From positions 1 through 11,994 of the forward strand of contig CAVYVF010000005.1 of NCBI GenBank assembly GCA_963771885.1: a stretch of 11,994 nucleotides of DNA, given 5' to 3'. A model generated the notes under the pieces. The model worked only from the letters and a program-made list of their open reading frames with translations. It was not told where the DNA came from and did not search any database. Shown in pieces: positions 144-11,994 of the stretch. The first letter of the stretch is position 1. The number at the start of each line of letters is the position of its first letter. The translations under genes were made by a program, and so were the position numbers. Source of the stretch: Candidatus Bathyarchaeota archaeon (lineage in GTDB: Archaea; Thermoproteota; Bathyarchaeia; TCS64).

Positions 144-249
144 GACTTTTCCTCCCACCTCTAACCAGGATTTGGGTCGAATCACGGCCTTTTCCTAACC
201 ATCGTTTAAAAGGAGCCGGGTGGCGGGCACTTTGATTGCATTGTATAGG

Positions 250-624
250 ATGAATCCGTTTAGGTGGCTCTGGGTCGGCTTAGGGGTCCTGTTCCTCGTA
301 GTCGGCTCAATGTGGGCTTTCTCATCCTTCCATCGTCCCATGTATTACTCTGGGACCTACCTTCGCATGCCCATGATGGGGTGGAGTGGCGGAGGTATGA
401 TCGGGGTGGGTATTATCGGTTTTATTGTGGTTTGCTTCGTCATCATGATTGCACTCAGGTCCACCGCCTGGGGTCATGGAGGTCATAGGATGGGCTGCGG
501 CATGGGTGGGATGGGTTGGTCTGGTGAGGCTGAGGAGATACTCAGGCAACGGTATGCTCGTGGTGAGGTTACGAAGGAGCAGTATGATCAGATGCTCCGC
601 GACCTCAGAGCCGGTGGATATTAG
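250..624 (+). CDS. SHOCT-domain membrane protein, two TM helices, Met/Gly/His-rich
   Basis: The C-terminal AEEILRQRYARGEVTKEQYDQM is a typical SHOCT motif, and there are two hydrophobic segments. ATG at 250 is preferred over GTG at 220 because TTTAAAA (205-211) lies too close to 220. Confidence 0.85.
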   Translation: MNPFRWLWVGLGVLFLVVGSMWAFSSFHRPMYYSGTYLRMPMMGWSGGGMIGVGIIGFIVVCFVIMIALRSTAWGHGGHRMGCGMGGMGWSGEAEEILRQRYARGEVTKEQYDQMLRDLRAGGY

Positions 625-677
625 CCTCGTTTACTCGTAGGAATTGTTTGGCTTGCCTACTTGAGTAAGTAGCTCTG

Positions 678-723
678 TTTGAGTGACTAGTCTGTGCGCG
701 CGAAATGCAAATACTCACTCAAA
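678..723. repeat. Inverted repeat TTTGAGTGA...TCACTCAAA enclosing GCGCGCG
   Basis: Perfect 9-bp arms at 678-686 and 715-723 (11/13 if extended inward). GCGCGCG lies at 696-702, near the centre. Confidence 0.7.
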
Positions 724-756
724 GAAATTTCCCTTTATTGACCTCATTTAACAAAC

Positions 757-764
757 TTTTTATT
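757..764 (+). promoter_or_regulatory. Putative archaeal TATA box of the csoR-ATPase operon
   Basis: TTTTTATT about 25 nt upstream of ATG 787, consistent with a leaderless transcript. Confidence 0.5.
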
Positions 765-769
765 CCCTA

Positions 770-795
770 ATATCCCCCCCAGGGGGATGGGATAT
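770..795. promoter_or_regulatory. CsoR/RcnR-type operator (C-tract/G-tract inverted repeat)
   Basis: ATCCCCC-CCA-GGGGGAT at 772-788, plus outer arms ATATCCC (770-776) and GGGATAT (789-795), overlapping the repressor start. It matches the AT-flanked G/C-tract style of CsoR/RcnR operators. Confidence 0.75.
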
Positions 796-1068
796 CAATT
801 GAGCGCTCAACATAAACACAGAGACCAGGTCCTCATCAGGTTAAACCGAATCGAGGGTCACATCAAGGGAATTAAGAAGATGGTTAACGAAGACCGAGAC
901 TGCACAGACCTACTACACCAACTCGCAGCAGTAAAAGCATCAGTTGAGAAACTAAGCCAACTCATACTAGAAGACCACATCGAATCCTGCCTACTTGACG
1001 CCGTAAAGTCGGGAAAGACCGACACCTACGTCGCCGACCTGAAAAACGCGATCTCAAAACTAGTCTAA
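787..1068 (+). CDS. csoR: CsoR/RcnR-family metal-sensing transcriptional repressor
   Basis: RLNRIEGHIKGIKKMV..DRDCTDLLHQLAAV..LILEDHIESC carries the conserved Cys, His, Cys ligands. 93 aa, 11 nt upstream of the ATPase. The sensed metal is not certain. Confidence 0.93.
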   Translation: MGYQLSAQHKHRDQVLIRLNRIEGHIKGIKKMVNEDRDCTDLLHQLAAVKASVEKLSQLILEDHIESCLLDAVKSGKTDTYVADLKNAISKLV

Positions 1069-1079
1069 AGGCGATAAAA

Positions 1080-3008
1080 ATGACAACAAACGTTGAATGC
1101 GAAGCATGCAGAACAACTCCCCCCGGATTCTTCGACAAGTACAGAGGATTCCTCCTATCACGCGGAATGATAATCGCCTTCATCAACACCACCTTCCTCA
1201 TACTCGGATTCGCACTCGAGTGGACCGGAAACAAGACTCTGGCAAACGCCTGCTTCATCATATCCGCCGTCGTGGGCGGCGCACCCATCTACTGGCTCGC
1301 TATAAACAACGTCTTCAGACGCTTCGACATGACCGCAGGCGTCATGGTAAGCATAGCCATGACGGCGGCACTCATCATCGGCGAATACAGTGCCATGGCG
1401 CTAGTCGCCTTCATGATGATCATCGGCGACGCCTTAGAGGAATTCACCAAGGCGAGAGCCGACATGGCGCTAAAGGAGCTCAACAAACTCGTGCCTGAAA
1501 CCGTCACCGTGAGAATGAGCGGCGAGGACCGCGTCATTCCTCTAGATCAGGTTAAGCCGGGGGATGTCGCCCTAATTAGACCAGGAGCCCGGATTCCAGT
1601 CGACGGAAACGTAGTCTCAGGCTCAGCGACCGTCGACCAGTCAGCCATCACCGGCGAATCCATGCCAGTAGAAGTTGCGGCGGGTAGCCGAGTATACGCC
1701 GGGACGCTTTGTTCGACGGGCTCCGTGGAAGTAACGGTCTCAGGCGTCGGGAAGGACACGACTCTGGGCCAGATGATACATCTGGTTGAGGAAGCCCAGC
1801 ACAGCCAGGCGCCCGTTCAGAGAGCGGCGAACAAGTACGCGAACTACTTCGCGCCGACAGCAGTATTAATCGCCATAATCGCCTACTTCATCACAGGCGA
1901 CATCATCAGAAGCATCACCATACTCATCGTGATATGCCCCTGCGTTCTGGTCCTTGCCACACCGACGGCGGTTGTGGCGGCCATCGGTAACACCGCGAAG
2001 AGGGGTGTGCTCGTTAAGAACGGTGCAGCGATGGAGCAGGTGGGAAAGATAGACGTCGTCGCCTTCGACAAGACGGGTACGGTCACATTCGGTGAACCCA
2101 AGCTCCTCTCAGTCGAGCCGCTGAAGGGCGTTAACGAGGAGCAACTGCTTCTCTACGCGGCATCAGCAGAGCGCTCAAGCGAGCACCCGATAGCGAGGGC
2201 GGTTGTACAGGCTGCGAGGGAGAGGAAAATCGAGGTCCCCATCCCCACCGGGTTTGAGGCTACGCCGGGTCACGGCGTCAAGGCAACCGTGAATGGCAAA
2301 ACAGTCCTGGTGGGTGCGAGGATGCTAGAGGCTGCGAAGGTAAAGATGCCCACAGAGGTTGCTAGCCGGATGGCCGAGGTGGAGGCGAAGGGACACACTG
2401 CGATCCCCGTGGCGCTTGATGGTAAAGTCGCCGGTGTATTTCACATCGCTGATACTGTGCGACCCGAGTCGAGGAAGGCGGTAGCCCAACTCAAGAGCCT
2501 CGGCGTTAAGAAGACGCTCCTAATCAGCGGCGATAATCGGGCGGTGGCTGAGAGCATAGGCAGAGACCTGGGCGTCGATGAGGTCTACTCTGAGACGCTA
2601 CCCCAACGGAAGCTGGAGATTATCAAGGAGCTGCAGTCGAAGGGCTACAAGGTTGCTTTTGTTGGTGACGGGGTTAATGACGCACCCGCTCTCGCAGCCG
2701 CTGAAATCGGTATAGCGATGGGCAGCATTGGTACGGCTGTGGCGATGGAGACTGCTGACATCGTGTTGCTGAGGGATGATGTGGGACAGATCCCGTATGT
2801 GCTTGAGCTCAGTCAGGCGACCATGTCTACGATAAAGAAGAACATTGTTTTCAGCATGGGGATGAACGTCACAAGCGTCATCCTAAGTGGGTTGGGCGTC
2901 TTCGGGCCAGTGGTCGGCGCCATGATGCATGAGGTTGCCGCGGTACCAGTGATAGCTAACTCTGCCCGATTGATCACACGGAAGCCGGGAAAAATCCTGG
3001 ACTCCTGA
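1080..3008 (+). CDS. Heavy-metal-translocating P1B-type ATPase (no N-terminal HMA domain)
   Basis: Motifs TGES, CPC (ICPCVLVLATP), DKTGT, SEHP, SGDN and GDGVNDAP. N-terminal CEAC. Last TM is MHEVAAVPVIANSARL. Confidence 0.97.
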   Translation: MTTNVECEACRTTPPGFFDKYRGFLLSRGMIIAFINTTFLILGFALEWTGNKTLANACFIISAVVGGAPIYWLAINNVFRRFDMTAGVMVSIAMTAALIIGEYSAMALVAFMMIIGDALEEFTKARADMALKELNKLVPETVTVRMSGEDRVIPLDQVKPGDVALIRPGARIPVDGNVVSGSATVDQSAITGESMPVEVAAGSRVYAGTLCSTGSVEVTVSGVGKDTTLGQMIHLVEEAQHSQAPVQRAANKYANYFAPTAVLIAIIAYFITGDIIRSITILIVICPCVLVLATPTAVVAAIGNTAKRGVLVKNGAAMEQVGKIDVVAFDKTGTVTFGEPKLLSVEPLKGVNEEQLLLYAASAERSSEHPIARAVVQAARERKIEVPIPTGFEATPGHGVKATVNGKTVLVGARMLEAAKVKMPTEVASRMAEVEAKGHTAIPVALDGKVAGVFHIADTVRPESRKAVAQLKSLGVKKTLLISGDNRAVAESIGRDLGVDEVYSETLPQRKLEIIKELQSKGYKVAFVGDGVNDAPALAAAEIGIAMGSIGTAVAMETADIVLLRDDVGQIPYVLELSQATMSTIKKNIVFSMGMNVTSVILSGLGVFGPVVGAMMHEVAAVPVIANSARLITRKPGKILDS

Positions 3009-3116
3009 ATACGCACGCATAGACATGATGTTCTTTGCCACATCAAAAGTTCGTAATCAACTCATTGATTTGATGATGAGAAGCTTCTAGTACTCGTAAA
3101 ACCTGGTTACTCGACT

Positions 3117-4346
3117 GTGTCGGGAAGACTCAGTTTTCTCACATCCCTAAACAGAGACGCCAGAACAATCATATTATCAAACTCGTGCCGCAGCTTCGCC
3201 GCAGCTATTCTCTCGGTAAGCTTCCCTATCTACCTAAGCAAAATCGGGGTCTCATCCATACTAATTGGCCTAACCTTCATGGGAATCAGCATATTTTCCG
3301 CACTACGCAGCCTAACCGAAGGAGTCGTAGCCGATAGACTAGGGAGAAAGCCTGTACTCCTCTTCCTAGCTACAAGCCTCACCATAGGTGGAATTATCTT
3401 TCTACTTACAACCAACATCACAATTCTACTCGTAACCGCGGTACTCTTCACGGTAGGAGGCACCATTACCTACCACCCAGCGGAGGTAGCTCTTCTAAGC
3501 GACAAGGTAAGCGACGAGAAAAGAACGATGGCGCTCAGCGTAAACGCAACCCTCGCTACAATCGCAAGTATACTGGGGAGCTTCTCAGCAGCCATCCCTG
3601 AGGCACTCCAGAGAGTTGGCGTCACCGAACTCCCCTCATATCAGCCAATCTTCATCATCTTCACCCTCGTCGGCGCAATCAGCTTCATGCTCTTCTTCAC
3701 AATCAAGGAGGAGAAAATCGAGCACAGGGTCGAAAAAACGGACGTGGTTACGGAGGAAGACAAGGCTGAGCGCAGATTACTAATGAAGTGGTCAGGAGTG
3801 GTAGCATTAGACCAGATCGGCGGGGCGTTCAACAACCTCCTAAGTTACTGGTACTATCTACGATTCGGTGTAGGCCCGGCGGAGATCGGCTTTGTCACCG
3901 GTGTTGGTCGCTTTATAGCGACCTTCAGCTACACGCTGGGGCTCAAGATGGCTAAGCGGTTTGGCACAATAAGAGCTACTGCATTGAGTCGTGTTCCCAT
4001 CTTCATAATCAACCTGTTAACTCCCGCAATGCCGAGTTTCGCTGTAGTCGCCGCAGCTCGAATTTTCATGAGTATATTCAGCGACATAGATGTTCCACTT
4101 AGGCAAAGCTACATCATGGGGGTGACTCGGAGCAAGAATAGGGCTTCAGCTTATGGCACTGTTCAGGTGGTAAGCAGATTCACTTCGGCGGGTGCGCCTG
4201 CTGTGACTGGATACTTGTACCAATTCGTCAGCTTAGCCTTCCCATTTTATGGTGCAGGATTCTTCCAATTTGCTTCTGCTGCCTCAATGTATCTATTATT
4301 CAAAGACATCAAACCCCCTGAGGAGCGGGCGGAGAGAAGGGAGTGA
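3117..4346 (+). CDS. Major facilitator superfamily transporter
   Basis: 409 aa, about 12 hydrophobic segments, motif A GVVADRLGRK, central hydrophilic loop, GTG start. Confidence 0.93.
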   Translation: MSGRLSFLTSLNRDARTIILSNSCRSFAAAILSVSFPIYLSKIGVSSILIGLTFMGISIFSALRSLTEGVVADRLGRKPVLLFLATSLTIGGIIFLLTTNITILLVTAVLFTVGGTITYHPAEVALLSDKVSDEKRTMALSVNATLATIASILGSFSAAIPEALQRVGVTELPSYQPIFIIFTLVGAISFMLFFTIKEEKIEHRVEKTDVVTEEDKAERRLLMKWSGVVALDQIGGAFNNLLSYWYYLRFGVGPAEIGFVTGVGRFIATFSYTLGLKMAKRFGTIRATALSRVPIFIINLLTPAMPSFAVVAAARIFMSIFSDIDVPLRQSYIMGVTRSKNRASAYGTVQVVSRFTSAGAPAVTGYLYQFVSLAFPFYGAGFFQFASAASMYLLFKDIKPPEERAERRE

Positions 4347-4394
4347 TTCCTCTACAGCTCCTAAACGATTACTTCTCTGAATAAACAGCTAGCT

Positions 4395-4421
4395 TGCAGC
4401 TCCTGTTAAAGTAGGAGTGCA
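4395..4421 (+). terminator. Possible hairpin downstream of the MFS gene
   Basis: TGCA-G-CTCCT pairs with AGGAG-TGCA with one bulge, about 50 nt after the stop. No strong T-tract follows. Confidence 0.25.
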
Positions 4422-4478
4422 GCGTTTGATCACACTAGTGGAATGCAAAGGTGTGACATCCTTCTTCGGTTGGCAATT

Positions 4479-4487
4479 CGCGCGCGC
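4479..4487. repeat. Intergenic alternating-CG motif
   Basis: TT-CGCGCGCGC-AC; same core as the sites at 697, 4801, 6386, 6866, 9697 and 11979. Confidence 0.65.
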
Positions 4488-4617
4488 ACTCCACGATAAT
4501 TCTTATTCGATGCATTATGGCAGCTAGGGTTTATCCTATCGAAAATTCATATTAATTGTTAGTAATAATCGCCCTTAAATCATATATATTATTGATATAT
4601 ATCACAAACCGGTATAA

Positions 4618-4740
4618 ATGAGCAAAACAAGCACAGCCTTCGCCCTGATCGGTGCATGCATAACCATATTCCTAATGATTACCTTCTGGAACACCCTGAG
4701 CCAGTTCATGAACGAGGGGCTGCTAAAGGCATTCAGCTAA
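4618..4740 (+). CDS. Small single-pass membrane protein (40 aa), not in the ORF track
   Basis: ATG..TAA gives MSKTSTAFALIGACITIFLMITFWNTLSQFMNEGLLKAFS with one clear TM helix. An AT-rich TATA-like segment lies at 4582-4602. Confidence 0.6.
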   Translation: MSKTSTAFALIGACITIFLMITFWNTLSQFMNEGLLKAFS

Positions 4741-4800
4741 TAGAACAGCACTAACTTTCTCGATGTTAGCCCTTCACAACGCCAATTTCCCAATAGCGTT

Positions 4801-4806
4801 CGCGCG
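4801..4806. repeat. Intergenic alternating-CG motif
   Basis: TT-CGCGCG-ATAA between two convergent stop codons (4740 and 4823). Confidence 0.6.
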
Positions 4807-4822
4807 ATAATATTTCATTTAT

Positions 4823-5371
4823 CTATAGCTTGATGTGCCACATCTTTCTACTTCTTCGTGCGTGTTCATAGTCGGGGTACTCCAAGGTTCTCTCATGCCG
4901 ACCGGTAAGCTCCTCAACATCGATCACAACACAGTGCGCAACACCGAACGTTCGGTAGCTCTTGGTGAACTGCAACCCACCTTCAGACGGGGGCTTACGG
5001 TAGAACTCCTTATACTTTGAGTGAAGCAAACTGAAGAAGTGGAGTTTATTCTCCTCATCGTTCTCGATATGTGCTTTTCCGAAAGCGAGGACACTATCAT
5101 AGTCCAGGTGGCAGAGGGCATCATAGTGGTAACTCACCTCCCCCATGAACTTGTCGACCTCAAAGCAACAGCTAGGGTTCTTCTTCAATACGTCCACCTT
5201 CTTTCCGTTCAAAGCACAGTGGAAAATGATTTTCTTATCCTCATATGCGAAGTTGACAGGGATCACATATGGTTTGTTTTCATCGCTTAGTGCCAGTCGC
5301 CCAACCTCGGCTCTTCTCAGCAGTTCCTCCATCTCCGCCAATCCATCTTCAGTTGTTTCATCTACCTTCAT
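4823..5371 (-). CDS. Pyridoxamine 5'-phosphate oxidase family (NimA-like) flavin-binding protein
   Basis: VGRLALSDENKPYVIPVNFAY..IIFHCALNGKKVDVLKKNPSCCFEVD..YDSVLAFGKA. Start is ATG 5371 or the longer ATG 5416. Confidence 0.9.
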   Translation of the reverse strand: MKVDETTEDGLAEMEELLRRAEVGRLALSDENKPYVIPVNFAYEDKKIIFHCALNGKKVDVLKKNPSCCFEVDKFMGEVSYHYDALCHLDYDSVLAFGKAHIENDEENKLHFFSLLHSKYKEFYRKPPSEGGLQFTKSYRTFGVAHCVVIDVEELTGRHERTLEYPDYEHARRSRKMWHIKL

Positions 5372-5588
5372 ATTACCAACTCTTGCATGTCCACTGGTGT
5401 TTGACGTGTTAAGCATTTATCGGCATATTAACTCTCCAAAGTTTATAGCGGCACACCTATAGGTCATATGCAAAAGCGTGGACACTCTCGAAATCATCTA
5501 TTGTGACCTCCCTAGGAAGATATCTTCTGTAGAATATGAGTACGCCAACTAGGCACGCGCAATATCGACCCCGTAATACACAAACTTG

Positions 5589-5849
5589 CTACAATATCTG
5601 GAAATAGATTAGTAAAGCAAGTTGAACAAGGAGAAAAAGGGGAACAACGAAAAACTTCAGTTTGCGAATCTTATGCCTAAAAAACACCATGCCCAACAAG
5701 TCGCCGAAGGGACCCAAAGCCGCCTGCACCAACAAGCTAGACTCAGATACCCTTCCCTCGCCCCTCACTGCCCGAAACTTATCAAAACCATAGAGACAAA
5801 GAGAGATACAATTAACTAAAATTATCACCGCTAACAGTGCCTGATTCAC
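5589..5849 (-). CDS. DUF1294 (YsdA-like) membrane protein
   Basis: N..SLCLYGFDKFRAVRGEGRVSESSL...G.LLGM.FFRHK.RK.KF signature. GTG start preceded by GGTGGGGAG. Confidence 0.88.
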   Translation of the reverse strand: MNQALLAVIILVNCISLCLYGFDKFRAVRGEGRVSESSLLVQAALGPFGDLLGMVFFRHKIRKLKFFVVPLFLLVQLALLIYFQIL

Positions 5850-5899
5850 GTCAGCTCCCCACCTACTAAATGCGAAATAGATAAAAGCACAGTGTAAGG

Positions 5900-5920
5900 G
5901 CGGGGCCTACCTGGCCCCGC
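5900..5920. repeat. GC-rich hairpin
   Basis: GCGGGGCC-TACCT-GGCCCCGC, a perfect 8-bp stem. Confidence 0.6.
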
Positions 5921-6385
5921 ACCCAAACGAGTGGCTTCAAGATTGGCAGAGATCCGAAGCAAATCAAACAGCGTCTTTCCACTCTATAAGATAAATGGAT
6001 GCTGAAACCATAACAACCGTATGAAAAGAAATTCATAATCCCAGACTAGGAAGAATAACAGAAATACAAAGAACAGAAAAAGGTTAACCAACACAACCCA
6101 GTACACTGAAAATTGAATAGAACGAATCAAATGAACAAAGAAGAAACGAGTATAACACCCCTAAACCGAGGAAAAACGGGGGTATATCGATAAAGCCAAC
6201 CATCGGACAATCTAACCCGTCGAAGGTCCATACTCCCATCGAGCCGTCGACACCAGCATCAGAGGGGTCGAAGAGACCCCTTAAAATCACTAAAAAAATT
6301 AATACTCGACTACCCTTCCGAGTATCTTCGCCTGCTCAACCCAATCCTTCACCGCACTCATCAGAGGAATGTATTTTTAGGTTAA

Positions 6386-6391
6386 CGCGCG
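6386..6391. repeat. Intergenic alternating-CG motif
   Basis: AA-CGCGCG-AGA, about 15 nt upstream of a TATA box. Confidence 0.6.
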
Positions 6392-6396
6392 AGATT

Positions 6397-6440
6397 AGAA
6401 AGTTCTTTATATCCTGATAAATATTCGACTCTAATGGTGA
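6397..6440 (+). promoter_or_regulatory. BRE/TATA promoter and RBS of the zinc-ribbon gene
   Basis: AGAAAG (6397-6402), TTTATAT (6406-6412) and GGTGA (6436-6440), the last ending 6 nt before GTG 6447. Confidence 0.6.
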
Positions 6441-6446
6441 GAACAA

Positions 6447-6845
6447 GTGTCAGATATCTTTGGGAAACTTAAATCGGGTGCATCGAAAGCCGCCTTTGAC
6501 GCGGATAAGCTGATGAAAGTAAGGAAGGTCGAAGGAGATATTTCTCAGCTCAAAAAACAGATAGATAACTTCCAGGAAAGGCTTGGTGAAATCACCTATC
6601 TTAGCTATGTTAACAAGGAGCCGCAGAGCCAAGAAGCAATAGACTTTTGTGAAAAGTTGATTGCTCTCGAGCAGCAAGTGGTCACTAAGCAAGAAGAGAT
6701 AAAGACTATCCAGGCCGAAGTTTTCGGACAGGCCGCACCAGCGAGCGCTCCAGTCGTCACGAATTTCCAAAAATGTCCCAGTTGTAGCAAGATGAACGCC
6801 GCTAATACCAAGTTCTGCGCCGAATGCGGCGCAAAACTGAGCTAA
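6447..6845 (+). CDS. Coiled-coil protein with a C-terminal zinc ribbon
   Basis: Helical N-terminal part, an A/P linker, then CPSC..(10)..FCAECG. Confidence 0.88.
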   Translation: MSDIFGKLKSGASKAAFDADKLMKVRKVEGDISQLKKQIDNFQERLGEITYLSYVNKEPQSQEAIDFCEKLIALEQQVVTKQEEIKTIQAEVFGQAAPASAPVVTNFQKCPSCSKMNAANTKFCAECGAKLS

Positions 6846-6853
6846 TGAATACA

Positions 6854-6880
6854 ATTTCTTGCAAACGCGCGCTAAGAAAT
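6854..6880. repeat. Inverted repeat ATTTCTT...AAGAAAT enclosing CGCGCGC
   Basis: 7-bp arms at 6854-6860 and 6874-6880; CGCGCGC at 6866-6872. Confidence 0.6.
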
Positions 6881-7013
6881 CTAAAATCGATTATCCTTGA
6901 CTAACCTCACAACCATTTTTCATCGCCACGGACACGAGAATCACAATTTTATAAACTTAACCTCATAATAAAAAAATATATACCATCACAACGATTCGAT
7001 CAATCTGACCCTA

Positions 7014-7496
7014 ATGATCGGATCTGAACTACTATATTCGTTATCCCTATGGTTCCTTCGAGCCCTAATCTCAAGTATAACCTGCTTAATCATCGGATAT
7101 CTCGGAATAAGAGGCATCTCAATCATCACAACCCAAGTAAACGAGTTCAAAACCATCAAAGGCCACCCACTAGCCACGAGCCTATTCTTAGGCGGCTTCT
7201 TCATCTACGCAGGTCTAGTCATCTATGGATCTATGGTCAACCCCTTCTTCCTATCCCAAAACATCTCAATCGGCTCTTACTTTAACGTAACAAGACTCGC
7301 CGTAGTCATTCTAAGCTTCCTGGTGAGCTTCATATTCGGAGGAGTCCTCCACTACATATTTAGCAAACTCCACCTCTTCAACGTGGACTTAGACGACATA
7401 AATAAAGATCCAACGGCGGTAGGCATTTTTCTATTCTGCTACCAAATATTCCTTGGATTAATTATCTTCTCAAGCCTAAATGTACCACTCGGCTAG
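7014..7496 (+). CDS. Four-TM membrane protein, DUF350-like (two repeats)
   Basis: Two units of TM-(NEFKTIKGHPLATSLFLGG / DLDDINKDPTAVGIFL)-TM. TTTTATAAA at 6947-6955 upstream. Confidence 0.75.
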   Translation: MIGSELLYSLSLWFLRALISSITCLIIGYLGIRGISIITTQVNEFKTIKGHPLATSLFLGGFFIYAGLVIYGSMVNPFFLSQNISIGSYFNVTRLAVVILSFLVSFIFGGVLHYIFSKLHLFNVDLDDINKDPTAVGIFLFCYQIFLGLIIFSSLNVPLG

Positions 7497-7506
7497 ATTG
7501 ATAAAA

Positions 7507-8337
7507 ATGTCACCCAAAAAAGCTCTGATAAGTATACTACTCATCGTAGCTATAATTGCCCCTACCGTTCAGGGAATCCCTAGTGGTGGCGGTTTACCAC
7601 CGAGCTTTACATACAATTCAGGAGAATGGTATGACGCTTGGGGAATCACACGCACATATGCCGAAGGAAGCCACGGCTACCTCCCACTACTACTCGCAGA
7701 GACAATTGGTGATAACAGTGAACAAGCCTACAGTATTGGTCAAAGGATGCAAGATACCTACTCCGATGAGAATACGCTGGCGACCAAGATTCTGAATTAT
7801 GTCCAGACCTGGGTAGAATACGGCTATGATAGCGATAATGTGTTCATGAATGGTGTAGCTCAAGAGGAGTGGGCCTGGAACGCTGATGAATTAGCTCACA
7901 GCTTCGACACTTCAACAGGCCAAATGGCGGTAGGGGACTGCGAAGACATGTCTTTCCTCAGCGCAACAATCTATGAAGGCGCGGGATTCGAGACAGCTAT
8001 CATCGACGCACCTGGACACGTAGCCTTACTCATCTGGTTACCTGATTTCCAGAACGCTAACCATTACTGGGATCTAGATGATGGTCGAGGAGCCGGCTGG
8101 ATCTGGGTCGAGGCAACCGGCTCATCGAATCCTTTAGGCTGGACGCCCCCAGACTTCTCTGACGGTGAATGGACCGCTTATACGCATGTTGGCGATACCT
8201 TCTATTCTCAACAACCCTATCAGGGTTCTACAGATGGAACGGGAACCGATGGTTCAGGGTCTAGTGGATTCGATTTGAACCTCGTGATACTCATCATTGT
8301 AATACTATTCATGTTGTTCACAAAATCCAGAAGATAA
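7507..8337 (+). CDS. Secreted, C-terminally anchored transglutaminase-like (papain-fold) protein
   Basis: Signal peptide MSPKKALISILLIVAIIAPTVQG; GDCEDMS / GHVAL / WVEAT triad; G/S/T linker, TM helix and KSRR tail. ATG 7507 is preferred over 7480. Confidence 0.82.
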   Translation: MSPKKALISILLIVAIIAPTVQGIPSGGGLPPSFTYNSGEWYDAWGITRTYAEGSHGYLPLLLAETIGDNSEQAYSIGQRMQDTYSDENTLATKILNYVQTWVEYGYDSDNVFMNGVAQEEWAWNADELAHSFDTSTGQMAVGDCEDMSFLSATIYEGAGFETAIIDAPGHVALLIWLPDFQNANHYWDLDDGRGAGWIWVEATGSSNPLGWTPPDFSDGEWTAYTHVGDTFYSQQPYQGSTDGTGTDGSGSSGFDLNLVILIIVILFMLFTKSRR

Positions 8338-8407
8338 CCACTAATAAGCGCACAGATGGTACTATTCTAGAGGTAAATTTGATAGGATCAACACCAGTCT
8401 ATGAAAC

Positions 8408-9586
8408 ATGGACACCGTAAACGCGGAGTCTGATCTAAACGCCTCCAAAATAAATAAGGATCTAGTAACCGGAAACACCAAATTCTCACTGAAAATCCTC
8501 AAAGAGTTACAGACAGAAGACAAAGACAAAAACATATTCATATCCCCCGTCAGCATCTCGATAGCTCTAGCCATGCTCTATAACGGAGCTGAAAGTCACA
8601 CCAAAGAAGCGATCGCTGAAGCTTTACAGATAAAGGGAATACTTCCCGCTGATATTAATGAAGGGTTTCAAGACCTCATGGATTCACTGGACGACCTGGG
8701 CACCCATGTCAGCTTGAGTATAGCCAACTCTATCTGGGTCAGACAAACATTCGAATCCCATATTAAAGACGAATTCAAGAGCGACCTCGCCACATATTTC
8801 AGAAGCGAGATTCTTTCCCGTCGATTTAGTGACTCCGCTACCGTAAACGAGATCAACGCTTGGGTTAAAACCAAGACGGGGGGCAAGATAGAAAAAATAA
8901 TTGAATTCATTTCTCGAGATACAATGATGTACATCATCAACGCGATATATTTCAAGGGAGACTGGCTCAACAAATTTGAAGAAACCAAGACCCGACAGAG
9001 GAATTTCCATCTCGAAAATGGGAAAACCATACAGAAAAAAATGATGAGCACAGTCAAGAAGTTCCATTATTATCATGACGACGGTATACAGGCTGCACGG
9101 TTGCCTTATGATCGAGACAAGATAGCGATGTATATACTACTACCCGATGAAGGCACGAATCTAAATTCTCTCGTAAACGATATCGATCCGGATAAACTTG
9201 AAGCCATTTTCTTAAAGATGAAAAAAATCGAACTCGAGTTACAATTACCGAAGTTGAAGCTAGAGTACGGAAAAAAGCAGTTGAACGACGCCCTCATCCG
9301 ACTAGGAATGGGCATAGCCTTCGATAGAGATTCCGCCAATTTCAAGGCCATTGCCTCACTCTACTCTGAGAACCTATTCGTATCTTTCGTAGACCATAAG
9401 GCAGTTGTTGAAGTTAACGAGATGGGAACAGAAGCAGCGGCAGTTACGAACATCGGGATCAAGCTATCAAGTATGTCGATAGCTACTCGGAGATTTATCG
9501 TGAATAAGCCTTATTTGTTTGTGATACGTGATGACCGCTCTGGTTTAATTTTGTTTATGGGAAAGATTGTAGAACCACTCCAATAG
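8408..9586 (+). CDS. Serpin family protein (inhibitory-type hinge)
   Basis: NIFISPVSISIALAMLYNGA, INAIYFKGDW, VEVNEMGTEAAAVT, F.VNKPYLFVIRD..SGLILFMGKIVEP. Confidence 0.97.
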   Translation: MDTVNAESDLNASKINKDLVTGNTKFSLKILKELQTEDKDKNIFISPVSISIALAMLYNGAESHTKEAIAEALQIKGILPADINEGFQDLMDSLDDLGTHVSLSIANSIWVRQTFESHIKDEFKSDLATYFRSEILSRRFSDSATVNEINAWVKTKTGGKIEKIIEFISRDTMMYIINAIYFKGDWLNKFEETKTRQRNFHLENGKTIQKKMMSTVKKFHYYHDDGIQAARLPYDRDKIAMYILLPDEGTNLNSLVNDIDPDKLEAIFLKMKKIELELQLPKLKLEYGKKQLNDALIRLGMGIAFDRDSANFKAIASLYSENLFVSFVDHKAVVEVNEMGTEAAAVTNIGIKLSSMSIATRRFIVNKPYLFVIRDDRSGLILFMGKIVEPLQ

Positions 9587-9696
9587 TTAGCCACGCACTC
9601 CATGATGGGAATCTTTAGTTCACTAATAATTCAAACGAGCATAATACCCTGTATCGAGCGTGCATGGGAGTATCTAGAGGGTCTACGTAATTTTTT

Positions 9697-9703
9697 CGCG
9701 CGC
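9697..9703. repeat. Intergenic alternating-CG motif
   Basis: TTTCGCGCGCACA (9694-9706) is the exact reverse complement of TGTGCGCGCGAAA (693-705). Confidence 0.7.
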
Positions 9704-9758
9704 ACATTATTGTACAAGCAGTTATTTAGACTCTAATACACAAGTCCATAGACCTCCA

Positions 9759-11702
9759 ATGAGGGCAAAGACTCAATGCGCCCGAGATTGCCCCGATTCC
9801 TGCTACATGGATGCAGAGGTGATAAAAGGTAAACTATTCTCAGTCACCGGAGGAAGAGACAATCCCATAACAAACGGAATGGTCTGCCCCCGAGGAGCAG
9901 GGGACGTAACACGAGTCTACAGTGATAAACGCGTCCTATACCCACGATTAAGAACGGGTAAAAAACCGAACAATGAATTTCTTAAGGTAACATGGAACCA
10001 AGCCTACGACAAAATTACCTCAACCTTGAAGGAATCACTAGAAAAATATGGTCCCGAGAAAATTTTACTATTGGACTATGCAGGCAACGCAGCTCTAATA
10101 ACCTCTCAGTACTCGATGCGCCTCTGGGCGGCAATGGGCGCAACCCACACCGATCACTCAATATGCAGCTTATCCGGGCACGAGGCCCTTAAGCTACACT
10201 ACGGACTCAGCTACGGGGTTACTGCTGAAAAACTACCGAGTATGAGACTCGTTATACTCTGGGGACATAATGCGAAAGTTAGCAGCATGCATCAGTGGGC
10301 CCAAATAAATAAGGCACGGGAAAATGGGGCAAAACTTGTTGTTATTGACCCCAGATGCAGTGAATCAGCGGCTCAGGCAGATTTATGGATTAAGCCCAAA
10401 CCCGGGTCCGATGTAACACTCGCTTATGGCATCGCCAATTACATTATAAACAAAGGCTACGTTGACCTTGACTTCATAAAACAGCATACAATCGGCTACG
10501 ATAATTATCGAAATGAAGCTCTAAACTGGTCAAAAAGCAAAGTCGAATCCATCACAGGTGTTGAATGGAGTGAGGTCGAGACTCTAGCGACTCTACTCGG
10601 AGAAAATAAGCCAAGCGTCATCTTCATGGGGATAGGTCTTCAGAAGGGCAACAATGGTGCTGAGGCGATCAGAGGCATCTCACTTCTGCCAAACCTAGTC
10701 GGACAACATCGAGGATTCTACTATACAAACAGCCGAGCCCGATTCATCGACTATGATTATCTCCACAACCCTAATCATAATTTTATTTGGAAAACCGTTA
10801 GTCAAACAAACTTAGCCTCACAGATTCAGGACGGAGATTACAAATTCATCTACGTAACTGGCACCAATCCCCTCGTTACGTTACCCAACCAAAAGTCTCT
10901 ACGCGAGGGACTATGCAGAAGCGACGTCTATTTGGTAGTTCACGATACGCATATGACCGAGACTTGTGATTACGCTGACGCCGTTCTCCCTGCGCCGACC
11001 TTCCTTGAAAAGGAGGACGTCTCAATATCCGATTGTCACCCTTACACCCGTTTCGGGCAGCGGTGTATCGAGCCCTTGGGTGAGAGCCGCACAGAAGTAT
11101 CCGTCACGAGAGAAATAGCCCTCCGCATTGGAATAGGTGGCCCATGGCTCATGGAGGAGCCGAGGGAAGCAATAAGGAAAACTATGAAGGACTCATTCGA
11201 AAATGGAACTGTTGAAGAGTTTCTCCAAGGCAAAGATTTGAAGATGAGGGAGAGAAGCAGAGATGAATATCAGACTCCAAGTGGAAAAGTCGAGTTCACA
11301 TCAACGACCGCCATCGACCCGACCACTCCACTTCCTAAACAGCGCCCACTCCTTGACGAGGATTCCTTAACCCTGCTAAATAGCTCACTTCCGCACTGGA
11401 CGCACAGTCAATTCAGAGATGTTTACGGGGAAATACCTTCAATTGTTTGGGTGAACAAACTTGACGCAGATGCGAGAGGAATCAGCGACGGTGACGCTGT
11501 TATTCTAAGTAATTCTGGTGGTGAGATAGAGGCTAAAGCACTGGTTGGTGCCAAGGTCAGGCGAGGTGTATTATGGTCTCCTCGACCAATAATCGATACC
11601 CTAGGTAGGCCACAAAATTCGTTAACTTCAGGAAAACCTCAGCATATAGGTGGGGGTCCTAGTTTTAACTCGACAAGAGTTAATTTAAATAAGAAAAAAT
11701 GA
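9759..11702 (+). CDS. Molybdopterin-dependent oxidoreductase (DMSO reductase superfamily), catalytic subunit
   Basis: N-terminal CARDCPDSC..CPRG Fe-S motif, LVVIDPR, IKPKPGSD, TETCDYADAVLPAPTFLEKED, TPSGKVEF, and a C-terminal Mo-dinucleotide-binding domain. Confidence 0.95.
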   Translation: MRAKTQCARDCPDSCYMDAEVIKGKLFSVTGGRDNPITNGMVCPRGAGDVTRVYSDKRVLYPRLRTGKKPNNEFLKVTWNQAYDKITSTLKESLEKYGPEKILLLDYAGNAALITSQYSMRLWAAMGATHTDHSICSLSGHEALKLHYGLSYGVTAEKLPSMRLVILWGHNAKVSSMHQWAQINKARENGAKLVVIDPRCSESAAQADLWIKPKPGSDVTLAYGIANYIINKGYVDLDFIKQHTIGYDNYRNEALNWSKSKVESITGVEWSEVETLATLLGENKPSVIFMGIGLQKGNNGAEAIRGISLLPNLVGQHRGFYYTNSRARFIDYDYLHNPNHNFIWKTVSQTNLASQIQDGDYKFIYVTGTNPLVTLPNQKSLREGLCRSDVYLVVHDTHMTETCDYADAVLPAPTFLEKEDVSISDCHPYTRFGQRCIEPLGESRTEVSVTREIALRIGIGGPWLMEEPREAIRKTMKDSFENGTVEEFLQGKDLKMRERSRDEYQTPSGKVEFTSTTAIDPTTPLPKQRPLLDEDSLTLLNSSLPHWTHSQFRDVYGEIPSIVWVNKLDADARGISDGDAVILSNSGGEIEAKALVGAKVRRGVLWSPRPIIDTLGRPQNSLTSGKPQHIGGGPSFNSTRVNLNKKK

Positions 11703-11976
11703 TTACATCGCCCACGCAACAAACACTCAATCGCTAACCCTAATCCCTCCAAAGCTTATCCTAATGCCATCAATGTAAGCTGGGTTTCCCCAATCTACCC
11801 GCCTTGAAATCCATTGTGAACCAGCCGCTAACTCAATAAACCGTATAAAATGAATAACCACACTTACAATCCTCAAACGCCGTAAACTCCCTCGACACCG
11901 AAGTCACGTTATCAAACGGGTAAATCACAGACCCGAGCATCCTAATGCTCTCGGACGGCGTACCCCCTACCGACAC

Positions 11977-11988
11977 ATCGCGCGCGAT
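11977..11988. repeat. Perfect palindrome ATCGCGCGCGAT containing (CG)4
   Basis: Read directly from the sequence. It lies at the window edge, so its coding context is uncertain. Confidence 0.55.
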
Positions 11989-11994
11989 TGCGGT

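What the first reader, a model, noticed from the sequence alone, without database searches (positions are those of the whole stretch)
220..11994. Gene-scale sawtooth strand skew (G/T-rich before a gap, A/C-rich after)
Seen (hand counts per 60 nt, + strand): 481-540 G+T 44; 901-960 A+C 41; 1141-1200 A+C 38; 2641-2700 and 2701-2760 G+T 35 each; 3361-3420 has 18 C versus 6 G; 4141-4200 G+T 37; 5641-5700 A+C 40; 8461-8520 A+C 40; 9481-9540 G+T 35; 11521-11580 G+T 37; 11701-11760 A+C 43. Within the ATPase, MFS, serpin and oxidoreductase genes, synonymous codons appear to drift from A/C-ending to G/T-ending. The resets fall in gaps carrying the CG motif or a variant; the DNA just before 6386 is an exception and stays A/C-rich. 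Inference: a strand-asymmetric mutational process starts bidirectionally from intergenic sites, for example distributed replication/repair initiation or resection. Windows were hand-picked and amino-acid bias contributes.
Basis: partly seen in the sequence, partly recalled or inferred. Interest (0 to 1): 0.7.

Follow-up and report, generated by a model that had tools for sequence, protein, structure and literature searches.

The report
Strand-bias sawtooth beside CG-sealed DNA joints
In the reshuffled accessory DNA of this uncultured archaeon, each strand is richer in G and T toward its 3' end of every gene block, a real mutational pattern that points the way expected if DNA ends are trimmed back before being rejoined with short CG patches, and that points the opposite way in the few sampled relatives lacking those patches.

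Summary
Real. All 12 hand counts are exact and the sawtooth survives at fourfold sites (0 of 2000 permutations). It runs on through operons and resets at long spacers. Sense strands gain A and lose G at 5' ends, lose C and gain T at 3' ends: the polarity of 5'-to-3' resection, opposite to origins. The host is a Bathyarchaeia MAG; the pattern is strong in low-GC islands (+0.20), near zero in the core (+0.02), so CGCGCG is no genome-wide anchor. The (CG)3-5 tracts are fillers added at deletion and shuffling joints, younger than the skew (6386 exception). Sampled relatives without tracts ramp the opposite way (6 of 6 negative; 11 of 14 tract-rich positive; orthologue pairs agree). Best reading (0.45): damage to 3' overhangs at repeatedly broken and rejoined spacers. 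Against: spacers are unskewed, a neighbouring tract adds little, no enzyme tracks the trait.

The parts
787..3008 (+). Tooth 1: CsoR-type repressor (787-1068) plus P-type ATPase (1080-3008), one continuous ramp across the 11-nt gap
   Evidence: Pfam PF02583, PF00122; third-position T/(C+T) 0.14 to 0.44 and A/(A+G) 0.77 to 0.24 over five bins; no reset at 1069-1079
3117..4346 (+). Tooth 2: MFS transporter
   Evidence: PF07690; fourfold G/T fraction 0.21, 0.22, 0.52, 0.60 by quarter
7014..9586 (+). Tooth 3: DUF350 (7014-7496), 276-aa protein without Pfam hit (7507-8337), serpin (8408-9586); one ramp, moved as one block in the C6 copy
   Evidence: T/(C+T) 0.21 to 0.53, A/(A+G) 0.85 to 0.57; no reset at the 10- and 70-nt gaps
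9759..11702 (+). Tooth 4: molybdopterin oxidoreductase
   Evidence: PF00384; fourfold G/T fraction 0.26, 0.39, 0.37, 0.54
220..624 (+). SHOCT-domain membrane protein; G/T-rich 3' end before the first spacer; slope not significant on its own
4823..5371 (-). Pyridoxamine 5'-phosphate oxidase-like gene; slope not significant
   Evidence: start as called
5589..5849 (-). DUF1294 gene, G/T-rich on its own strand throughout (A/C-rich on +), 3' end facing the 5553 joint
6299..6368 (-).
   Evidence: alignment 5553-6368 with C6:14548-15361; translation
6447..6845 (+). Zinc-ribbon protein; short block, no ramp; lies elsewhere in the C6 copy
696..702 (.). Alternating CG tract, 7 nt, in the spacer where skew resets
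3009..3021 (.). Degenerate alternating purine-pyrimidine tract at the ATPase-MFS reset (inferred aged scar)
   Evidence: age is inference
4479..4487 (.). Alternating CG tract, 9 nt
4801..4806 (.). Alternating CG tract, 6 nt
5553..5561 (.). Degenerate tract at a shuffling breakpoint (C6 has a perfect tract at one side and an extra block between)
6386..6391 (.). CG tract at a recent joint; start of homology with C6:20673
6866..6872 (.). CG tract, 7 nt, between the zinc-ribbon block and tooth 3
9697..9703 (.). CG tract, 7 nt, exact breakpoint between two blocks that have other neighbours in C6
11979..11986 (.). CG tract, 8 nt, added at a joint: the C6 and C2 copies run on here without it
676..2912 (.). 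Stretch deleted in one contig of run X1 and replaced by an 8-nt alternating GC filler; the right end lies inside the ATPase gene
   Evidence: tables 5 and 5c (one contig, depth 5.3)

Best explanation
The sawtooth is a long-term mutational footprint of DNA-end processing in accessory DNA. Islands of this archaeon are broken and rejoined often (shown: shuffled near-identical copies). Joints that survive selection fall mostly between transcription units (shown for tracts; selection inferred). Ends are trimmed 5' to 3', so on each side the strand whose 3' end faces the break is single-stranded for some hundreds of bases (inferred). It takes C-to-T and, less, A-to-G changes without sequence preference, and these are fixed when the gap is filled (polarity shown; chemistry inferred). 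The ends are sealed with 6-10 nt of alternating CG, which is self-complementary and could let any two 3' tails anneal (filler shown; annealing inferred). Many rounds leave each block A/C-rich at its left end and G/T-rich at its right end on either strand. The tract seen today marks only the latest joint, so skew follows old block ends, not each motif.
For: Two-ended, opposite-signed terms in the window with block and codon box controlled: 5' -0.59 [-0.84, -0.39], 3' +0.39 [0.25, 0.67], 4 blocks; C5+C6 -0.42 and +0.32, 13 blocks; scale about 500 nt. By base, window 5' end A +0.35, G -0.16, T -0.13; 3' end C -0.26, T +0.16; this is C-changes left and G-changes right of the gap, the order shown for bidirectional resection in yeast (PMC6786661, passages). 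No neighbour-base preference. Strong where shuffling is frequent: islands +0.199 [0.153, 0.243], 180 blocks; core +0.019, 829 blocks. Lineage-specific at identical codon boxes: ATPase 0.21 to 0.54 here, 0.63 to 0.38 in G057; serpin 0.38 to 0.41 here, 0.71 to 0.34 in G064. Sign follows the trait: 6 of 6 tract-poor genomes negative, 11 of 14 tract-rich positive; 118 orthologue pairs from tract-poor genomes differ from G000 by -0.117 [-0.19, -0.04], 351 from tract-rich ones by -0.006 [-0.04, 0.03]. Fillers are added at joints and in an independent run. NurA is present.
Against: Spacer DNA itself is almost unskewed on either side of tracts or gene ends. Outside C5 and C6 the island 5' term is weak (-0.07 [-0.17, 0.03]) and the 3' term dominates (+0.23), and tract distances predict a ratio of only 1.2. 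In the core and in tract-rich relatives both ends lean G/T (+0.06/+0.09, +0.03/+0.10), which is not the two-sided pattern. A neighbouring tract adds -0.29 [-0.54, -0.03] at island 5' ends, not significant without C5 and C6, and nothing in the core; convergent 3' ends with a tract are lower (-0.093) than without (+0.005). No dose-response: rho 0.25, p 0.37 over 15 genomes with at least 20 blocks; G069, among the richest in tracts, is flat. Differences between 40 pairs of close copies do not show the predicted excess (C/T 3' minus 5' +0.014 [-0.035, 0.068]; A/G 5' minus 3' -0.04 [-0.083, 0.007]). No repair enzyme tested separates tract-rich from tract-free genomes.
Confidence: 0.45

Rival explanations
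1. Transcription-linked bias: exposure of the non-template strand rises toward terminators (pausing, R-loops), and sense minus antisense transcription sets the local skew. Spacers matter as unit boundaries; CG tracts only share the place.
For: The ramp runs through tight operon gaps (island 3' ends -0.258 at gaps of 30 nt or less) and rises at unit ends with no tract (-0.09 co-oriented, +0.005 convergent). A unit model beats a gene model and a 3'-only term fits all islands best. The 3' C-to-T shift is the common element.
Against: The window's strong G-to-A shift at 5' ends would need damage to the template strand; the 5' end (-0.6) is far beyond the core level (-0.25), where transcription is presumably higher; it gives no reason for the sign to differ with CG tracts.
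Confidence: 0.22
2. Single-stranded import: island blocks arrive as single strands that enter 3' end first, so the 3' part waits longest and is damaged most; either strand can enter, which gives a two-sided, near-linear ramp. Captured pieces are then joined with CG fillers.
For: Confined to mobile, low-GC blocks; in the window a linear ramp fits nearly as well as a two-ended decay (AIC 1912 against 1907); blocks move as units between copies.
Against: No uptake system was looked for; 3'-first entry is recalled from bacterial transformation, not tested; tract-free relatives show their opposite ramp in mostly core orthologues too.
Confidence: 0.13
3. Distributed replication: forks or repair synthesis start (or end) in spacers and a leading/lagging bias builds the teeth.
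For: Both transition types shift along the blocks; tract-free G027 and G064 show the polarity expected around origins.
Against: The window has the opposite polarity to origins with a G/T-rich leading strand (PMC3174206, abstract start); the 2 Mb core, copied by the same replisome, is flat around CGCGCG.
Confidence: 0.09
4. Selection on codon use or mRNA structure that fades toward 3' ends of weakly constrained island genes.
For: Island 5' ends resemble the core level (-0.26 against -0.25) while 3' ends approach zero; fourfold divergence is higher at 3' ends (0.188 against 0.133); spacers lack the skew.
Against: 26% of 113 island blocks overshoot above +0.15 at the 3' end against 3% of 651 core blocks; orthologues with the same codon boxes ramp the other way; amino-acid-changing positions of DUF350 also lean A/C.
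Confidence: 0.08
5. Artefact of assembly, binning or my gene calls.
For: The MAG is 6.7% contaminated; C5 correlates only 0.69-0.72 in tetranucleotide use with the large contigs; genes were called with my own script.
Against: Strong ramps and tracts also sit in islands inside the large contigs; C5 shares their GGCC avoidance; aligned orthologues need no start calls; an independent run shows a new filler.
Confidence: 0.03

Closest known systems
Strand-coordinated mutation around resected double-strand breaks ('5' C single-switch' clusters in yeast; PMC6786661, passages read)
   Same: C-changes on the top strand left of the break and G-changes right of it; single-stranded 3' overhang as the target
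   Different: There: single events, APOBEC-driven, tens of kb, repaired by homologous recombination. Here: a standing compositional gradient of about 500 nt at many block ends in an archaeon, no neighbour-base preference, and A/G shifts as well
Replication-associated GC/AT skew (bacterial leading-strand G and T excess, PMC3174206 abstract start; mammalian origin-linked skew jumps, title seen in the reference list of PMC10030826, details recalled)
   Same: Sawtooth in G+T versus A+C at neutral sites with abrupt resets
   Different: Period 1-2.5 kb, tied to gene blocks in islands, and opposite polarity at the reset
Transcription-associated strand asymmetry (G/T excess on the non-template strand; PMC10030826, passages read)
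   Same: Follows transcription units; C-to-T on the sense strand at 3' ends
   Different: Sense strand is A/C-rich at 5' ends with a G-to-A shift; sign differs between close relatives
Ku/LigD non-homologous end joining with filler nucleotides
   Same: G000 carries LigD polymerase, Ku and ligase genes together; joints carry added bases
   Different: Filler is a fixed alternating CG of 6-10 nt; Ku neither necessary nor sufficient across genomes
Integron cassette arrays
   Same: Blocks of accessory genes reshuffled at short intergenic marks
   Different: Marks are often absent from both parent sites, breaks can fall inside genes, flanks share no consensus

Membership tests
Resection-type single-strand damage asymmetry | C-to-T left and G-to-A right of the break on the top strand | tested here: met
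   Window and C5+C6 base terms; in other islands only the C-to-T side is clear
Resection-type single-strand damage asymmetry | Effect centred on break sites and strongest in adjacent DNA | tested here: inconclusive
   Decays over about 500 nt from block ends, but spacers unskewed and tract adjacency adds little
Resection-type single-strand damage asymmetry | Directional excess among new mutations | tested here: inconclusive
   Three-copy sites: A/C-to-G/T 66 of 811 in 3' halves against 47 of 924 in 5' halves, few loci; pairwise differences do not show it
Resection-type single-strand damage asymmetry | 5'-to-3' resection machinery encoded | tested here: met
   Two NurA hits in G000; neighbours read by me as HerA, Mre11, Rad50; also present in tract-free genomes
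Replication-origin skew | A/C-rich before and G/T-rich after the reset | tested here: not met
   Opposite order in the window; met by tract-free G027 and G064
Replication-origin skew | Present wherever the replisome acts | tested here: not met
   Core flat around 515 CGCGCG sites; core ramp +0.019
Transcription-associated asymmetry | Follows transcription units, continuous through operons | tested here: met
   (units inferred from gap length)
Transcription-associated asymmetry | Damage on the non-template strand only | tested here: not met
   G-to-A on the sense strand at 5' ends in C5 and C6
Transcription-associated asymmetry | Scales with expression or antisense level | not testable with these tools
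   No run on record as RNA held the stretch in a DNA-kind search
Ku/LigD NHEJ | Ku, polymerase and ligase genes present | tested here: met
   G000:C23:379234-382788
Ku/LigD NHEJ | Scar trait co-occurs with Ku | tested here: not met
   Ku in 29 of 79 genomes; G064 and G063 have Ku and 0-1 tracts; single-contig G011 and all of genera g3 and g9 lack a Ku match yet most carry tracts
Site-specific cassette recombination (integron-like) | Site present on both partners before exchange | tested here: not met
   At least 10 joints seen with the tract in one copy only; X1 joint between two tract-free sites
Site-specific cassette recombination (integron-like) | Dedicated integrase | not tested
   No integrase search was run

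The most novel reading that the evidence does not exclude
A family of Bathyarchaeia joins unrelated DNA ends by trimming them to 3' overhangs and adding a self-complementary (CG)3-5 tail that works as a universal sticky end, independent of Ku. It does so often enough that overhang damage has rewritten codon use, and even amino acids, at both ends of mobile gene blocks; lineages without this pathway show the mirror-image skew. Strand skew would then record which end-joining chemistry a genome uses and how mobile each gene has been.
Probability: 0.3. Interest if true: 0.87.

Novelty: new variant of a known kind. Interest (0 to 1): 0.66.

Why it matters
Strand skew in prokaryotes is read as a mark of replication or transcription. 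A kilobase-scale, two-sided skew with break-resection polarity, limited to reshuffled DNA and reversed in close relatives, would be a third source, visible in a single assembled genome. It would give a sequence-only measure of how often a gene block has been cut and moved, and a comparative handle (tract-rich against tract-free genomes in one genus) for finding the unknown enzyme that writes the CG filler. Even if the cause is transcription, a sign change between genomes of one genus is unusual and testable.

Tried and rejected
CGCGCG as a genome-wide anchor: no skew around 515 sites in the four large contigs, weak in 144 sites of small contigs. RNA element in the window: 0 Rfam matches. Ku/LigD as the scar maker: distribution does not fit. 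A third primase-like protein of about 440 aa: patchy cargo, not among G000's two hits. A second ATP-dependent ligase: present in tract-free genomes too. NucS, NurA, UDG, PolX, PolB matched 5 of 5 panel genomes and Y-family polymerase 0 of 5, so none discriminates. Breaks lying nearer to 3' ends as the cause of the stronger 3' term: medians 76 against 173 nt, but predicted ratio only 1.2. Enzymatic deaminase motif: none. Close relatives in the metagenome collection: 0 of 52 pattern matches confirmed. Pairwise difference spectrum: no support. Runs X2-X4 hold only short pieces of the window and were not used for habitat or absence. Earlier-note look-ups near the window, by sequence and by skew words returned nothing. 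Only 3 tract-free genomes were sampled with 20 or more blocks, which leaves the sign flip thinly based.
Full report
Setting. The window is a whole contig (C5) of a 2.46-Mb, 23-contig MAG, 92% complete and 6.7% contaminated, with an archaeal 16S gene. Relatives of a window protein lie mostly in records titled Bathyarchaeia or Bathyarchaeota. It holds 11 accessory genes, 10 with Pfam hits, and no Rfam match. Genes outside the window were called with my own hexamer script. Islands were defined by G+C below 0.52 in 5.5-kb windows, 570 kb in all, without using skew or tracts. Blocks are runs of co-oriented genes with gaps up to 60-75 nt. Skew is (G+T-A-C)/all at fourfold third positions on the sense strand; intervals are bootstraps over blocks or genes.

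The observation. 12 of 12 hand counts are exact. The drift is present at fourfold sites (pooled r 0.162; 0 of 2000 permutations within gene and codon box), significant alone in 3 of 11 genes; the serpin reaches it only at twofold sites. The unit is the block: CsoR and DUF350, first in their blocks, are A/C-rich throughout, and the 3 short gaps show no reset while 6 of 7 long gaps do. Excluding the window, island genes give a within-gene, within-box slope of 0.121 against a permutation s.d. of 0.009; the core gives 0.011.

The motif. C5 and C6 share five long pieces at 89-97% identity in a different order, and the ends fall at or near alternating CG tracts. Of 138 flank matches to intergenic tracts, 80 end within 4 nt of the tract, many because the copy carries the same tract; in the part of the output I could see (it was cut) at least 10 joints have the tract in one copy only, for example C10:22657, a 10-nt tract between two pieces that lie 2 kb apart in C20 with no tract. 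Flanks have no consensus. Intergenic tracts number 172, 98, 88, 47, 21 for lengths 6-10, then none but one of 15; other alternating pairs fall off faster. One contig in run X1 joins window 675 to 2913, inside the ATPase, with an 8-nt GC filler. So tracts are fillers written at joints. They occur in 61 of 70 other genomes of the family and 0 of 8 outside it, with counts from 0 to 137; G011 and G073 show the same length profile. I wrote this reading down before seeing that 7 earlier notes of the scan say the same; one of them is marked as partly fallen on a later check, and I could not see which part.

The exception at 6386. The DNA before it is the last 23 codons of a minus-strand gene that is whole in C6. 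The joint is recent and the skew still reflects the older block end. Tracts can therefore be younger than the skew.

Does the motif anchor the skew? Not genome-wide: flat around 515 CGCGCG sites in the large contigs. Block ramps are +0.199 [0.153, 0.243] in 180 island blocks and +0.019 in 829 core blocks. In islands, 3' ends stay at -0.258 before tight co-oriented gaps, rise to -0.09 before longer gaps without a tract and to 0.00 with one; convergent ends are -0.007 (tight), +0.005 (no tract), -0.093 (tract). With block effects removed, a tract adds -0.29 [-0.54, -0.03] at island 5' ends (25 of 143 blocks; not significant without C5 and C6), +0.12 [-0.03, 0.25] at 3' ends, and +0.085 [0.02, 0.16] at 3' ends in tract-rich relatives. 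Block ends matter more than the present tract.

Shape and chemistry. In the window both ends move, -0.59 and +0.39, over about 500 nt; in other islands -0.07 and +0.23. By base, 5' ends gain A and lose G and T; 3' ends lose C and gain T. Read on both strands, the strand whose 3' end faces the spacer carries the C-to-T change. Sakofsky and colleagues show this order (C left, G right) for bidirectional 5'-to-3' resection in yeast (PMC6786661; I read 12 passages). It is opposite to an origin with a G/T-rich leading strand (PMC3174206, abstract start) and, at 5' ends, to non-template damage (PMC10030826, passages). There is no neighbour-base preference. DUF350 codons that change the amino acid also lean A/C against most of 36 homologues, which are not independent of one another.

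Relatives. I sampled 11-400 kb from each of 19 relatives; G011 stretches were chosen near tracts and several G069, G070 and G076 contigs because they hold homologues of window genes. Six genomes with at most 4 tracts per Mb all ramp negatively (G027 -0.164 and G064 -0.123 with intervals excluding zero; G048 -0.029; G063, G057, G056 on 6-11 blocks each). Of 14 with 20 or more per Mb, G000 included, 11 are positive and 3 lie between -0.001 and -0.027. Rank correlation is 0.50 (p 0.024) over all 20 and 0.25 (p 0.37) over the 15 with at least 20 blocks; kin are not independent. The 172 blocks in tract-free loci, a mixed set of archaea with some overlap with the family, are flat (+0.012). G027 is a mirror image by base: T up at 5' ends, A up and G down at 3' ends. 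Aligned orthologues agree: -0.117 [-0.19, -0.04] against G000 for 118 pairs from tract-poor genomes, -0.006 [-0.04, 0.03] for 351 pairs from tract-rich ones, though G069 and G075 alone look like the tract-poor group.

Results against my reading. Spacers are nearly unskewed. Core and tract-rich relatives lean G/T at both ends. Tract distance does not explain the stronger 3' term. Differences between 40 pairs of close copies lack the predicted excess, and transversions are higher at 3' ends; three-copy sites give weak support. Ramp size varies widely between island contigs.

Machinery. G000 has LigD polymerase, Ku and ligase genes together, but Ku (29 of 79 genomes) does not follow the tracts. 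Primase-family extras, a second ligase, NucS, NurA, UDG, PolX, PolB and Y-family polymerase do not discriminate either. The filler enzyme is unidentified.

Literature. Ten full-text searches (listings and abstract starts only, except the three papers named as read) returned no paper on a gene-scale skew or CG fillers in Bathyarchaeia; the one Bathyarchaeia genome paper searched for terms has no mention of skew, repeat or repair in its main text (PMC11697101). The library lacks most subscription papers, and no supplements were opened; island tables there could bear on the claim.

Verdict. The sawtooth is real, mutational, two-ended in this window, confined in strength to reshuffled islands, and of resection polarity. 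The CG tracts mark joints, not origins. A common cause in end processing is the best reading (0.45); a transcription-linked cause is the main rival (0.22). It works like break-flanking single-strand damage; membership of Ku/LigD joining, origin skew and cassette recombination failed a defining test each.

Noticed in passing
G000:C23:379234-382788 (L049, L050, L053): LigD polymerase, Ku and ligase genes in one cluster; Ku found in 28 of 70 other genomes of the family and 0 of 8 outside it.
   Followed up: yes
L123:8047-9366, L124, L125, L126, L127: A 437-440 aa primase-family protein with a small upstream partner recurs as cargo in five genomes of the genus; no such hit in G000.
   Followed up: partly
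G000:C17:24809, C18:4689 and 5605, C2:284701: Four PolX-family hits in G000 against one in each of four relatives; C18 matches itself as a 10-kb inverted repeat at 97.9%, possibly an assembly artefact.
   Followed up: no
G064 and G063 stretches (L132-L142, L179-L180): G+C of 34-36% in a genus whose other sampled members are 47-56%; both are tract-free and keep Ku.
   Followed up: partly
G000:C22:153244: A 4-nt GC insertion with no deletion inside a repeated stretch, the smallest filler event seen.
   Followed up: no
G000:C6:4646-6382: A second CsoR plus P-type ATPase pair in several short frames, either decayed or carrying sequencing errors (names are my reading).
   Followed up: no
G000:C22:290367 and C23:492081: Both PolB frames are shorter (511, 551 aa) than in relatives (696-891 aa), probably frameshift errors in the assembly.
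   Followed up: no
whole genome G000: GGCC is the most avoided 4-mer (14,400 seen, 29,876 expected), and C5 shares the avoidance.
   Followed up: partly
G000:C23:532639-535246: A second ATP-dependent ligase directly after a gene I read as a flap endonuclease; a second ligase is common in the family.
   Followed up: partly
window 7014-8337: DUF350 and the 276-aa protein without Pfam hit are found together in many archaea: homologues of both turned up in the loci fetched with the 276-aa protein.
   Followed up: no
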